Shown in pieces: positions 3,903 through 43,825 of a stretch of 43,825 nucleotides of DNA. The notes beneath the pieces are model-generated. The model had not been told where the DNA came from and did not search any database. It saw only the letters and a program-made list of their open reading frames with translations. A program made the translations under genes and the position numbers. This DNA comes from a virus (taxonomy: Duplodnaviria; Caudoviricetes), in the IMG/VR virus record IMGVR_UViG_3300037470_000389, positions 1 to 43,825 of that record; one strand, written 5' to 3'. The first letter of the stretch is position 1; each line of letters begins with the position of its first letter.

Positions 3903-3948
3903 TGGTGGGCGGTACTGGACTCGAACCAGTGACCCCTGCGATGTGAAC
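3903..3948 (-). other. attP core: 3' half of tRNA-Val(CAC)
   Basis: Minus strand reads GTTCACATCGCAGGGGTCACTGGTTCGAGTCCAGTACCGCCCACCA (anticodon loop TTCACAT, T-arm ACTGG-TTCGAGT-CCAGT, ACCA); no 5' half; about 10 nt from the integrase stop. Confidence 0.9.
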
Positions 3949-3957
3949 ACTTTGACC

Positions 3958-5034
3958 CTACTGCTTTTTGGCCGTTTTAGCTAGAGACAATCGCTTTTTG
4001 GGCTGTTTTTGTACCGTTTGCATTCCCGTAGTCCGGTTCGCTGGCCCAAAGAGAGCTGTGTGAATCGCGGCGGCTCCTTTCTGGAGGTAGTCTGGCGAGT
4101 AACGTGCGTACACCCGTTCCGTGACCGCCGTGGACGTGTGACCTAGGAATTGGCTTAGCTCGCTCATGGGAACCCCACCCTCGGCCATGAACACCGCGGC
4201 CGAATGACGTAGTACGTATGGCGTCACCCCGGACAGACCGGCCCGGCGACAAGCCTCTGCAAACCCTTTCTTGATACTCCCCACCTTCTGTCCTGCCCAT
4301 TCGATCACGTAGTCCGTTCTGGCAGCCTGCTGAGCCAATACAAGCGGTCCAACAAGCGATGGAGCCATCGGTACAGTGGCCCTCCCTTTAGCGGTTTTGT
4401 CTCTAGCTGGATTGTCCAAGTGAATCCGCCGTCCCTTGAAATCCACTCTCTCCCAAACAAGGTCCAAGATTGAACTTGGCCGTCCAGCCGTGTAGATGCT
4501 GAGTAGAATAAAGAGCCGCACATGGGGCATTTGTGCTGCATCTAGGAGTCTCCTGGCTTCATCGGAGGTGAGGTGGCGGGCACGTGGTCTTGGTTTTGAG
4601 GGGAGCTTAAACTTGGCGTCGGACCCTCCGTGTCGGAGTGCAGCTCTGAGGTAGCCAAGTTCGGTGTGGATAGTTCCATCGCCAACAACTCTGCGACGGG
4701 TCGCCACGTATCCTCGTGCCCAAGCGCTTGAAATAGTTTCTGGCGCGTGCGAAGCGCATTCATGGCTGAGTGCTTTCCAAGCATCCCGCATCCTTCCTAC
4801 TGAAATTTTCCCCTGAGCTTCTTTTTCTGCCACATAATCGGCCCAAATATCCCCTACTGTGAGTCTGTTCGATGGTCGTAAGAGGGCGTCTCGTTCTCTG
4901 GCGAATTCTCTGAGGGCCGCTCGCGCTTCAGCCGGTGAAGCTGCATTAACAAGACGCCATCGTTTGCGCCGGCCTCCTTCGTACCAGACGCAAACCCATC
5001 GGCCTTTGAGCTTTCCGAGGCGATAGTCTGGCAT
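3958..5034 (-). CDS. int: Tyrosine integrase
   Basis: TAGR, K (KTAK), YVLRHS, LGH, VYAR catalytic positions; adjacent tRNA-derived att. Confidence 0.93.
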   Translation of the reverse strand: MPDYRLGKLKGRWVCVWYEGGRRKRWRLVNAASPAEARAALREFARERDALLRPSNRLTVGDIWADYVAEKEAQGKISVGRMRDAWKALSHECASHAPETISSAWARGYVATRRRVVGDGTIHTELGYLRAALRHGGSDAKFKLPSKPRPRARHLTSDEARRLLDAAQMPHVRLFILLSIYTAGRPSSILDLVWERVDFKGRRIHLDNPARDKTAKGRATVPMAPSLVGPLVLAQQAARTDYVIEWAGQKVGSIKKGFAEACRRAGLSGVTPYVLRHSAAVFMAEGGVPMSELSQFLGHTSTAVTERVYARYSPDYLQKGAAAIHTALFGPANRTTGMQTVQKQPKKRLSLAKTAKKQ

Positions 5035-41817: not shown

Positions 41818-42053
41818 CGCTTCCTCGCTTTCTGACGGCGCTTGATTTCTCGTTCGACGGCTTCTCTCACAAAATCAGTACGGTCCTCATTGGTTTTCAG
41901 GACAGAGGCGATTTGCTCGAAAGTCCCCTCCGGGAATCGAGCTTGCATGTCCTCGGACCATCGTTTTTTCCTGCCCACATGCCTAGGGGTAGCCAAAGGC
42001 GGGGGATTAGTCACCTGATTTTTCTGATATGGGATATTGACCTCGAAACTCAT
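41814..42053 (-). CDS. Ribbon-helix-helix (Arc/CopG-like) regulator
   Basis: MQARFPEGTFEQIASVL...RTDFVREAVEREIKRR; true start may be GTG at 41978. Confidence 0.75.
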   Translation of the reverse strand: MSFEVNIPYQKNQVTNPPPLATPRHVGRKKRWSEDMQARFPEGTFEQIASVLKTNEDRTDFVREAVEREIKRRQKARKR

Positions 42054-42077
42054 ATGAGGTAAGTTATCTCATATCAG
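42024..42077 (+). promoter_or_regulatory. Sigma70-type promoter embedded in inverted repeats
   Basis: TTGACC (42037)-17 nt-TAAGTT (42060); flanked by CTGATATGGGATA / TATCTCATATCAG (13 bp IR, 1 mismatch); internal palindrome CTCATATGAG. Confidence 0.7.
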
Positions 42078-42093
42078 TTATGGAGGCAAGGAG

Positions 42094-42269
42094 TTTCGGC
42101 GGCGGCGTGGAAAGCAGACACGCAGCCTTTAATGAGGCGAGGCCAGCCACCTTTTACAGGGCCGCAGGGGTGAGAAGCGCGACGATCCTGCGTACGGCAC
42201 GATGCCTCTACGGTGAGACCGGGGGACGCGCTCGTTCCCGGAGCCTCAGTAGCGCGAGGCCCGCCGAAA
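42094..42269 (+). ncRNA. tRNA-framed structured RNA, copy A
   Basis: Closing stem TTTCGGCGG/CCGCCGAAA, CG, GCGTG/CACGC arm, internal hairpins, GCCTC-AGTAGCGC-GAGGC arm stacked on the closing stem. Confidence 0.7.
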
Positions 42270-42285
42270 GCTAAACGGGGAACGC

Positions 42286-42641: not shown

Positions 42642-43040
42642 ATGCCCGTGCCCATGCCCGCAGTCGTTGTTCTGGTGGTGTGCAAAACAATCATCTCAGG
42701 CCCTCCCGATCAGAACGCAGGCTACACGGGATACGAACCAAGGGAGTGGGCCACGGAGCACTCCATGATGATCTGCCGGCGTCTTGAGATCGACGTGATG
42801 GATCAAGCGGAAGCAATGGGAGCCGATCCCCAACCGTTCAATCAACAGCGATGCCAACGCAGCGGAGCGCTGTTAGGTGTCGAATGGGATCAAGCTCATA
42901 GGAGTTCATCGTATAGACATTGGAGATACGCTTGTCCGGTGCCCATTGTGAACACGATCACGAAAGAGATTATTGGCTGGAAAAAACCTGAGTGCGGACA
43001 CCGCGACACGGTACGCTGTGAGGTTGATGCCGAGATATGA
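42642..43040 (+). CDS. Hypothetical Cys-containing protein
   Basis: GGGGGA RBS; six Cys; short hydrophobic N-terminal stretch. Confidence 0.7.
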   Translation: MPVPMPAVVVLVVCKTIISGPPDQNAGYTGYEPREWATEHSMMICRRLEIDVMDQAEAMGADPQPFNQQRCQRSGALLGVEWDQAHRSSSYRHWRYACPVPIVNTITKEIIGWKKPECGHRDTVRCEVDAEI

Positions 43041-43052
43041 AGGAGACTGACA

Positions 43053-43127
43053 ATGGCTTTTAGCATCCCAATGTTTGGCCCAGGCCCAGCAAGCGGCCAG
43101 CCGCGTTACGGCAAGTTCGAAATCTAA
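43053..43127 (+). CDS. Candidate micropeptide (24 aa)
   Basis: AGGAGACTGA RBS context identical to that of the 40883 gene; MAFSIPMFGPGPASGQPRYGKFEI. Confidence 0.4.
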   Translation: MAFSIPMFGPGPASGQPRYGKFEI

Positions 43128-43335
43128 TTGCCGCCCGTGAACCCGAGTTTCGATTACTCGGCAGCTCCACCAATGGGCGCTCCTAGGAAATACGCTAGAG
43201 ATATGTTCCACAACTGTCTCTAGACAACCGATGGTCATGTGCGAGTTGTGGTTAGCGCATGATTGGAGCGTCCTTTAATGGGGCTGAAAAGGTATCGCAC
43301 GGGTAGCAGTCCTGAGCATGACGATAAACTGCTCA
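43127..43335 (+). ncRNA. ssrA: Circularly permuted (two-piece) tmRNA-like RNA / tRNA-Ala mimic
   Basis: 3' piece first: GCCCGTG-AAC-CCGAGT-TTCGATT-ACTCGG-CAGCTCC-ACCA (43133-43172); 5' piece second: GGGGCTG-AAAAGGTATCG-CACGGGT (43280-43304). Acceptor stem has G3:U70 and A73; stemless D-loop; helix 2 pairs across the pieces. Outer ends uncertain. Confidence 0.75.
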
Positions 43336-43419
43336 ATTGAGGCCCTCGGTGAAAGTCCGTTAAGCCATCACTGATGGATGAGGCAGACCAAGTTTCTGAC
43401 AGACCGTGAATCTGTCAGC

Positions 43420-43522
43420 GGATTGCGAGCGACGCGGTGAACCTCCAGGCCGTAGCCTTGGCATTACCCGTTTTCTGCCATGTGCGCCATGCAAGGGAAT
43501 TGGAGTCCTTGCCTCGCAATCC
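43420..43522 (+). ncRNA. Structured RNA, divergent tRNA-framed copy C
   Basis: 10-bp closing stem GGATTGCGAG/CTCGCAATCC with GCAAGGG-AATTGGAG-TCCTTGC arm stacked directly on it. Confidence 0.5.
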
Positions 43523-43528
43523 ATCTAA

Positions 43529-43693
43529 CTGGCGGCGGCGTGGAAGCTAGTTCGCGACAAGACACGCCTGAGAATGCAGCTGCAACGGCGGGTTACTACC
43601 GGGTTGATCACGGTAAACTGGCCGTAAGTGGAACATAGGCCCTGACGGTGCTGCTACCGATTCGGGGAGCCGGGATAGCGTCCGGCCCGCCAG
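43529..43693 (+). ncRNA. tRNA-framed structured RNA, copy B
   Basis: Closing stem CTGGCGG/CCGCCAG, CG, GCGTG/CACGC arm, internal hairpins, GCCGG-GATAGCGT-CCGGC arm; covaries with copy A. Confidence 0.7.
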
Positions 43694-43698
43694 AACTA

Positions 43699-43825
43699 CC
43701 CCTGTATCTGCGTCATCCGAGGCCACTCATGGAACAAACATGGGAAAGCCCATAGAGCGTATCGAGCAAGACTGGCAGATAACTTTAGCTGCCCTTGAAC
43801 GAAACGATTGGGACTGTGCTAAAGC
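43699..43825 (+). repeat. Terminal direct repeat, copy 2 (assembly overlap)
   Basis: Identical to 1-127. Confidence 0.9.

What the first reader, a model, noticed from the sequence alone, without database searches (positions are those of the whole stretch)
43127..43335. Phage-encoded, circularly permuted tmRNA-like alanine-tRNA mimic
Seen: a tmRNA-type 3' end (T-arm CCGAGT-TTCGATT-ACTCGG, CAGCTCC, ACCA; 43143-43172) lies 107 nt UPSTREAM of a tmRNA-type 5' end (GGGGCTG-AAAAGGTATCG-CACGGG; 43280-43303). GGGGCTG/CAGCTCC forms a 7-bp acceptor stem with G3:U70 and discriminator A. CACGGGT-A-GCAGT (43298-43310) pairs with ATTGC-C-GCCCGTG (43127-43139), giving helix 2. Known: G3:U70 is the AlaRS identity element, a stemless D-loop is the SmpB-binding tRNA-like domain (TLD) of tmRNA, and permuted two-piece tmRNAs occur in Alphaproteobacteria. 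Inference: this is not an att remnant, since the attP is tRNA-Val 4 kb away and both halves are present. The 6-bp T-stem and the absence of a canonical tag suggest a repurposed TLD: an SmpB/AlaRS decoy, a non-degradative ribosome-rescue RNA, or a decoy against tRNA-cutting defences.
Basis: partly seen in the sequence, partly recalled or inferred. Interest (0 to 1): 0.9.

Follow-up and report, generated by a model that had tools for sequence, protein, structure and literature searches.

The report
Tagless two-piece phage mini-tmRNA gene
A likely temperate phage carries a rearranged DNA copy of only the tRNA-like, alanine-type end of the bacterial ribosome-rescue RNA (tmRNA), with no tag-coding part; it is predicted to be cut into two paired pieces that likely interfere with the host's rescue-and-tag system, a stripped two-piece layout apparently catalogued so far only for mitochondria.

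Summary
43127-43335 is a circularly permuted tmRNA tRNA-like domain (RF04321, E 8.5e-4, below cut-off; fold z -5.2; 0 of 300 resampled windows match). It lies in a circular P22-like phage with an integrase and a tRNA-Val(CAC) att core; the host is likely alphaproteobacterial. No tag frame follows, or lies elsewhere in the genome, whereas 87 of 90 other phage permuted tmRNAs have one.

Three corrections. The 6-bp T-stem is not evidence of repurposing: 118 of 120 genome hits, mostly Chloroflexota ssrA, have one. The pseudoknot after helix 2 is a generic phage boundary motif, not tmRNA pk1. The 107-nt spacer is itself structured, with complementary loops.

No full homologue was found. One low-depth contig in the probable source sample shares the acceptor piece with different flanks.

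Best reading (0.5): a processed, alanylated, tagless two-piece domain that competes with host tmRNA, like phage DS6A's one-piece form. Each ingredient is published; I found the combination in a phage in no paper. This scan's earlier notes report one-piece tagless forms and the pseudoknot on other DNA, but not this layout. Expression and function are untested.

The parts
43127..43172 (+). Acceptor piece: helix-2 3' strands (43127-43131, 43133-43139), linker AAC (43140-43142), 6-bp T-arm (43143-43161), acceptor 3' strand (43162-43168), discriminator A and encoded CCA (43169-43172)
   Evidence: Sequence; pair list and probabilities; RF04321/RF01849 alignments; a second contig matches 43127-43183 with 4 differences and no gaps
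43173..43279 (+). 107-nt intervening segment: 9-bp closing stem (43175-43183/43265-43273), two hairpins (43195-43223, 43233-43264) whose loop regions are complementary over 8 nt (43208-43215/43244-43251; predicted kissing loop); predicted to be excised
   Evidence: Fold z -4.26, 0 of 200 shuffles; loop complementarity; excision inferred from two-piece tmRNA processing (PMC3985003 passages)
43280..43310 (+). 5' piece of the tRNA-like domain: acceptor 5' strand with G3 (43280-43286), stemless 11-nt D-loop with GG (43287-43297), helix-2 5' strands (43298-43304, 43306-43310)
43309..43335 (+). Small H-type pseudoknot (stem 1 43309-43311/43320-43322; stem 2 43313-43318/43330-43335); generic phage boundary motif sitting where pk1 would be; predicted end of the 5' piece
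   Evidence: 31 phage records match this stretch; 96.6% of cells paired in 13 aligned copies, compensatory changes at one pair; none in the permuted tmRNA loci fetched; a minor contig diverges right after 43335
43053..43127 (+). 24-codon ORF with a ribosome-binding site (43039-43045); its stop codon ends on the first base of the acceptor piece
   Evidence: no Pfam match; translation untested
3903..3948 (-). Predicted attP core: 3' part of tRNA-Val(CAC), beside the integrase gene (3958-5034, minus strand); shows the phage is not expected to integrate in ssrA
   Evidence: 12 of 401 genomes of one class match with up to 3 mismatches, 3 with one; ARAGORN calls those 3 loci tRNA-Val(CAC)

Best explanation
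This is a circularly permuted tmRNA tRNA-like domain with alanine identity elements and no tag frame, which is predicted to be processed into two paired pieces and likely competes with the host's own tmRNA. Shown by sequence and calls: architecture, pairing, G3·U70, discriminator A, encoded CCA, lack of a tag frame, and a generic pseudoknot in place of pk1. Inferred steps: (1) it is transcribed within a rightward operon of small ORFs and structured RNAs (about 42070 to 2090 across the junction). (2) Host RNase P cuts before G43280 and 3' trimming frees CCA 43172, releasing the spacer, as for alphaproteobacterial two-piece tmRNA. (3) The pseudoknot sets the 3' end of the short 5' piece near 43335. 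(4) Host AlaRS charges it. (5) It binds SmpB and EF-Tu, and so titrates SmpB or enters stalled ribosomes and adds one alanine without a degradation tag. That lowers tagging and proteolysis of phage or host products, as reported for the DS6A-type domain.
For: Architecture and statistics. Intact pairing despite only 30-33 of 46 identity to 5 candidate host ssrA acceptor pieces points to selection on structure. No tag: 87 of 90 real phage permuted tmRNAs have an Ala-ending tag by my filter; the best resume-site score in 43310-43530 is -8.2, and only 2 of 87 true sites fall below -7 in leave-one-out; no Ala-ending tag half elsewhere in the genome (0 of 9 sites above 5 bits). Boundaries: a 151-nt contig matches 43127-43183 with other flanks, and a 309-nt contig replaces 43336-43698 by 249 other letters. 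The host class likely uses two-piece tmRNA (5 of 5 att-matching genomes tested). Precedent: a DS6A-like domain inhibits endogenous tmRNA in E. coli, perhaps by titrating SmpB (PMC4131195 passage; PMC11915505).
Against: No expression or processing data. No full-length homologue, so no covariation for the domain itself. The elbow that SmpB binds differs from the norm: the A after UCG is present in 90 of 90 phage permuted tmRNAs and absent here, the linker AAC occurs in 0 of 90 (GAC in 84), and the D-loop is 11 nt. SmpB binding may therefore be lost, although one tagged tmRNA also lacks that A (L195). The score is below Rfam's cut-off. The outer helix 2 is weak. The letters that differ in the 151-nt contig were not shown, so conservation of G3·U70 there is unknown, and that run may be the source sample. 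The 249 replacement letters were not visible and could hold a tag. The DS6A result is known to me only second-hand.
Confidence: 0.5

Rival explanations
1. Processing scaffold: the permuted domain mainly recruits RNase P and 3' trimming to cut the polycistronic transcript and release the 107-nt kissing-loop spacer RNA (and neighbouring RNAs) as the real product; alanine identity is a by-product.
For: The spacer folds strongly (z -4.26) with 8-nt complementary loops. The second contig's match runs through the closing-stem strand and then changes sequence. The element sits in a run of structured RNAs. The SmpB elbow deviates.
Against: G3·U70, discriminator A and a tmRNA-type D-loop are kept, which cutting alone would not need. 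The spacer interior is not conserved in the one relative. Structured spacers also occur in tagged genes.
Confidence: 0.2
2. Decoy or substrate for host defence: the RNA soaks up tRNA- or tmRNA-directed nucleases or tmRNA-sensing defence proteins rather than acting on ribosomes.
For: Defence systems predicted to bind tmRNA through SmpB-like folds exist (CoCoNuTs, PMC11090510 passages). Other tRNA-like RNAs lie nearby.
Against: No anticodon arm, so anticodon nucleases have no target (general knowledge). No host genome or defence system is known. The CoCoNuT link is itself a prediction.
Confidence: 0.12
3. A working two-piece tmRNA with an unusual, non-degradative tag (ALGESPLSHH, frame starting at 43342).
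For: An Ala codon lies 63 nt from G1, within the 57-118 range of true resume sites, just after a pseudoknot. The peptide lacks an Ala-ending degron.
Against: Resume context scores -12.1, below the lowest true site in leave-one-out (-11.9). No A four bases upstream. The region is base-paired in the prediction and is replaced in a minor contig. Helix 2 has at most 12 pairs.
Confidence: 0.07
4. A passively captured or decaying ssrA fragment or att remnant with no function.
For: Sub-threshold Rfam score, elbow deviations, and no full homologue in any search.
Against: Both halves are present with 7 of 7, 6 of 6 and 7 of 7 pairs intact. Low identity to candidate host genes. The att core is tRNA-Val. 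A relative shares the acceptor piece in another context.
Confidence: 0.06

Closest known systems
TLD-only (CDS-less) tmRNA of mycobacteriophage DS6A (PMC4131195, PMC11915505)
   Same: Phage-borne tRNA-like domain with alanine identity and no tag frame
   Different: DS6A is listed as little more than the domain, in standard one-piece order (order recalled); this one is permuted, with a 107-nt structured spacer and a pseudoknot
Mitochondrial permuted CDS-less tmRNA of jakobids and others (RF02544; PMC3590771, PMC11915505)
   Same: Permuted, two-piece, G·U and discriminator A, no tag frame; likely alphaproteobacterial origin
   Different: Here in a phage; has a pseudoknot, which jakobid forms lack (PMC3985003 passage); CCA is encoded; no RF02544 match at E up to 10
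Two-piece tmRNA of Alphaproteobacteria and aquatic phages such as Melnitz (RF01849, RF04321; PMC9004378)
   Same: Gene order acceptor piece - spacer - 5' piece; acceptor, T-arm, D-loop and helix 2a
   Different: No tag, short helix 2, no second inter-piece pairing found, pk1 replaced by a generic motif, A after UCG missing, linker AAC, small integrase-bearing podovirus-like phage
Coremin motif, Watson-Crick variant xrRNA-WCC (PMC10321173)
   Same: Short hairpin whose loop pairs with a downstream spacer; boundary location
   Different: Described in eukaryotic RNA viruses as an Xrn1 block; the passages searched had no mention of phages or bacteria; here the loop-spacer stem has 6 pairs and activity is untested; the resemblance came as a lead from earlier scan notes

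Membership tests
Permuted (two-piece) tmRNA | Permuted order: T-arm/CCA end upstream of the 5' end, separated by a spacer | tested here: met
Permuted (two-piece) tmRNA | 7-bp acceptor stem with G3·U70, discriminator A, CCA | tested here: met
Permuted (two-piece) tmRNA | Stemless D-loop with GG, T-loop, and helix 2a | tested here: met
Permuted (two-piece) tmRNA | Score at or above Rfam gathering cut-off (RF04321 47 bits; RF01849 50 bits) | tested here: not met
   30.4 and 18.6 bits
Permuted (two-piece) tmRNA | Conserved elbow letters (A after UCG; GAC-type linker) | tested here: not met
   90 of 90 have the A and 0 of 90 have AAC; one tagged exception for the A
Permuted (two-piece) tmRNA | Resume codon context and tag frame ending in an Ala-type degron | tested here: not met
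Permuted (two-piece) tmRNA | Processing into two pieces, alanylation, SmpB binding, trans-translation | not testable with these tools
   No RNA holder listed; bench assays needed
CDS-less TLD-only tmRNA (DS6A type) | tRNA-like domain with alanine identity and no tag frame | tested here: met
CDS-less TLD-only tmRNA (DS6A type) | Standard one-piece order with helix 2 closed by a loop | tested here: not met
   Permuted order; L004 shows the one-piece form for contrast
CDS-less TLD-only tmRNA (DS6A type) | Inhibits host tmRNA when expressed | not testable with these tools
   Reported for DS6A-like RNA in PMC11915505
Mitochondrial permuted CDS-less tmRNA (RF02544) | Permuted and tag-less | tested here: met
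Mitochondrial permuted CDS-less tmRNA (RF02544) | Match to RF02544 and mitochondrial location | tested here: not met
   No such match at E up to 10; phage genes surround it
Coremin / xrRNA-WCC (for 43309-43335) | Hairpin-loop to spacer pseudoknot | tested here: met
   (13 copies chosen by BLAST similarity; compensatory changes at one pair only)
Coremin / xrRNA-WCC (for 43309-43335) | Blocks a 5'-3' exoribonuclease; needs a downstream hairpin | not testable with these tools
   PMC10321173 passages

The most novel reading that the evidence does not exclude
The acceptor piece has no promoter of its own and starts at a stop codon, here and apparently in the one relative. The upstream phage mRNA itself then ends in an alanine-charged tRNA-like domain completed in trans by a 56-nt pseudoknot-capped piece: an aminoacylated bacterial mRNA end, with the same cuts releasing a kissing-loop cargo RNA.
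Probability: 0.12. Interest if true: 0.85.

Novelty: new variant of a known kind. Interest (0 to 1): 0.52.

Why it matters
Tag-less permuted tmRNAs are catalogued at 72 sequences against 73 mitochondrial ones (PMC11915505 Tables 2-3), so they look like an organelle speciality whose function is open. A phage version in a likely alphaproteobacterial host would be a parallel reduction that can be tested in Caulobacter. It would show whether such a domain rescues ribosomes without tagging, blocks tmRNA, or serves as a processing device. It would also add a phage way of tuning trans-translation that ARAGORN and Rfam cut-offs both miss.

Tried and rejected
Homologue searches found no full-length relative.
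- Viral contig patterns: (one search stopped after 22 of 64 parts).
- Metagenome pattern: 50 hits, 1 real tagged tmRNA and 49 without a T-arm by my test.
- Genome pattern: flooded by Chloroflexota ssrA; 9 of 64 parts scanned.
- BLAST against phages and plasmids: short pieces only.
- RF04321 in 17 of the 30 related phage records found through neighbouring or capsid proteins: 0 of 17.
- DNA query in 3, 1, 1, 73 and 401 genomes: three short hits, one a pseudoknot alone and two chance-like.
No RNA holder listed.
The 6-bp T-stem as a sign of repurposing was rejected. A U-A closing pair also occurs in tagged phage tmRNAs (L051, L069, L118).
The pseudoknot as tmRNA pk1 was rejected. RAGATH-18 was considered from memory: no Rfam match, search listing only.
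A separately encoded tag half was not found.
The helix-2 length comparison was uninformative: median 19, range 5-28 in 90 genes, and the same crude measure gave 17 here through spurious extra pairs. The first tag finder picked wrong frames and was replaced.
No + strand sigma-70 site passed the scan.
Mao et al. 2009 was not held. Table S2 of PMC11915505, the taxonomic breakdown of forms, was not among the supplement text I could see; it could list a phage permuted tag-less gene.

Full report
Setting. The window is a whole virus record with a 127-nt terminal repeat. PHROGs finds P22-type portal, scaffold, capsid and ejection genes, an integrase, a repressor and an endolysin, so it is a likely temperate podovirus-like phage. 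A 46-nt tRNA 3' part beside the integrase (3903-3948) matches 12 of 401 genomes of one class with up to 3 mismatches, 3 of them with one. ARAGORN calls those three loci tRNA-Val(CAC). The class was reached through a genome titled Alphaproteobacteria, and 5 of 5 matching genomes tested carry a permuted ssrA. Only this class was searched and no match was exact, so the host is likely, not shown. The finding lies in a non-coding block (43041-43698) between a 132-codon gene and a phosphoesterase/exonuclease gene; two of four relatives of the 132-codon gene have no such block and run directly into what looks by eye like a phosphoesterase gene.

Observation. Every helix is present: acceptor 7 of 7 pairs with G3·U70, T-stem 6 of 6, helix 2a 7 of 7, helix 2b 5 of 5. 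RF04321 scores 30.4 bits (E 8.5e-4) and RF01849 18.6 bits (E 6.1e-4), both under cut-off. ARAGORN finds nothing. The fold has z -5.22, and the architecture arose in 0 of 300 resampled windows. Helix 2b has only about 0.2 probability in a wider context and overlaps pseudoknot stem 1 by two bases.

Baseline. A pattern scan of viral contigs gave 119 loci from 22 of 64 parts. These are 94 distinct sequences, of which I dropped 4 that lack acceptor or T-arm pairing, leaving 90. All 90 have A after UCG; this element has C. The linker is GAC in 84 and AAC in none. An Ala-ending tag is found in 87 of 90. Of the other three, L045 has a longer tag by eye, and L081/L092 have only a doubtful ARAGORN tag. 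With a resume-site matrix from those 87, the best site in 43310-43530 scores -8.2 and the frame at 43342 (ALGESPLSHH) -12.1; the leave-one-out median is 20.2, with 2 of 87 below -7. None of the 9 genome-wide sites above 5 bits opens an Ala-ending tag by my filter. So the element is tag-less on this evidence. One metagenome tmRNA with a normal tag also lacks the A after UCG (L195), so that change need not be fatal.

The 6-bp T-stem. A genome scan for this geometry returned 120 loci; 118 pair at all six positions, most are titled Chloroflexota, and 37 show the 5' end 322-345 nt upstream as in standard ssrA. The long stem is therefore compatible with ordinary chromosomal tmRNA. Those close with G-C and this one with U-A, but U-A closing also occurs in tagged phage genes (L051, L069, L118).

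The pseudoknot. 43309-43335 matches 31 phage records with hosts from several phyla. I read 14 of them: most sit just after a stop codon, two lie 3-6 nt before a tRNA, and two precede a DUF2800 RNA. In 13 aligned sequences (this one and 12 of the 14; two with longer loops left out) 96.6% of cells pair, one pair shows compensatory changes, and 5 of 500 shuffles reach the covariation score; the copies were chosen by similarity, so this is modest support. None of the permuted tmRNA loci fetched carries it. Earlier scan notes likened it to the coremin motif; the passages of PMC10321173 describe a similar hairpin-spacer knot and contain no mention of phage or bacteria. A role in fixing the RNA end is inferred.

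The spacer. It folds as a 9-bp stem with two hairpins (z -4.26), and the two loop regions are complementary over 8 nt.

Relatives. One run holds the stretch and may be its source. In it, a 151-nt contig at depth 2.6 (main path about 82) matches 43127-43183 with 4 differences and no gaps. It has other sequence on both sides, and its upstream flank ends in TAG. A 309-nt contig at depth 2.8 joins 43335 to 43699 with 249 other letters. These put both limits of similarity at the element's ends, but I could not see the differing letters and cannot tell whether the two contigs belong together. All other searches found no full homologue (see Tried and rejected). Five candidate host ssrA genes share 30-33 of 46 letters with the acceptor piece and have normal tags, so this is not a fresh capture.

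Mechanism. Shown: anatomy and lack of a tag. Inferred: transcription in a rightward operon, from a by-eye promoter candidate at 42037-42065 that the scan did not pass; cutting by tRNA-processing enzymes as described for two-piece tmRNA (PMC3985003 passages); alanylation; and SmpB binding at the elbow (PMC3968760 passages). A tag-less domain would then compete with host tmRNA, as reported for the DS6A type (PMC4131195 passages; PMC11915505 parts 1-3 of 5). I put this at 0.5, mainly because the elbow deviates. Rivals: processing scaffold for the spacer RNA 0.2, defence decoy 0.12 (PMC11090510 passages), odd tag 0.07, dead fragment 0.06.

Known versus new. Phage two-piece tmRNAs are published (53 ARAGORN calls; PMC9004378 passages). 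So are a tag-less phage tmRNA (DS6A) and permuted tag-less mitochondrial tmRNAs (PMC3590771 passages). PMC11915505 counts 72 permuted tag-less sequences and 73 mitochondrial ones; that these are the same set is my inference, as Table S2 was not visible. Six literature searches (listings and abstract starts) showed no permuted tag-less tmRNA in a phage. PMC1168896 passages confirm the roles of A86 and G333; other E. coli numbering is recalled. The element is not a member of working two-piece tmRNA (no tag, under cut-off). It is built like mitochondrial tmRNA and likely works like the DS6A RNA.

Verdict. A real RNA gene by structure, a new variant of a known kind, so far nearly a singleton, with untested expression and function. 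Interest 0.52.

Noticed in passing
window 42098-42270 and 43531-43692 (+): Two related tRNA-like structured RNAs that share their 5' and 3' ends but differ inside; no Rfam or ARAGORN match. Another contig in run X1 joins the 5' end of one to the 3' end of the other.
   Followed up: partly
window 43353-43425 and 43420-43523 (+): Two further predicted multi-hairpin RNAs, the second closed by a 10-bp stem; fold z-scores are unremarkable (-0.28, -0.43), and the region is replaced in a minor contig.
   Followed up: partly
window 42021-42080: Long imperfect palindrome covering a by-eye promoter candidate (42037-42065) between divergent genes; possibly an operator for the RNA operon.
   Followed up: no
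L081 and L092: Phage contigs with two tandem permuted tmRNA domains: the first has no clear tag and is followed by an ORF resembling a GIY-YIG endonuclease (by eye), the second has a normal tag and a hairpin spacer.
   Followed up: partly
L004 1501-1580 (-): 80-nt one-piece tag-less tmRNA domain beside phage tRNA genes (RF00023 51.9 bits), DS6A type.
   Followed up: no
L223-L342: Chloroflexota ssrA genes commonly have a 6-bp T-stem (118 of 120 pattern hits fully paired).
   Followed up: partly
L253: A contig of a genome titled Alphaproteobacteria has a Chloroflexota-type standard ssrA while the same genome has a permuted ssrA elsewhere; possibly a misbinned contig.
   Followed up: no
L013 430-1180: Microcystis phage Mwe-JY13 has an unannotated non-coding stretch of about 750 nt after the terminase gene that contains the same pseudoknot and a tRNA-like end; no Rfam hit at E up to 0.05.
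   Followed up: no
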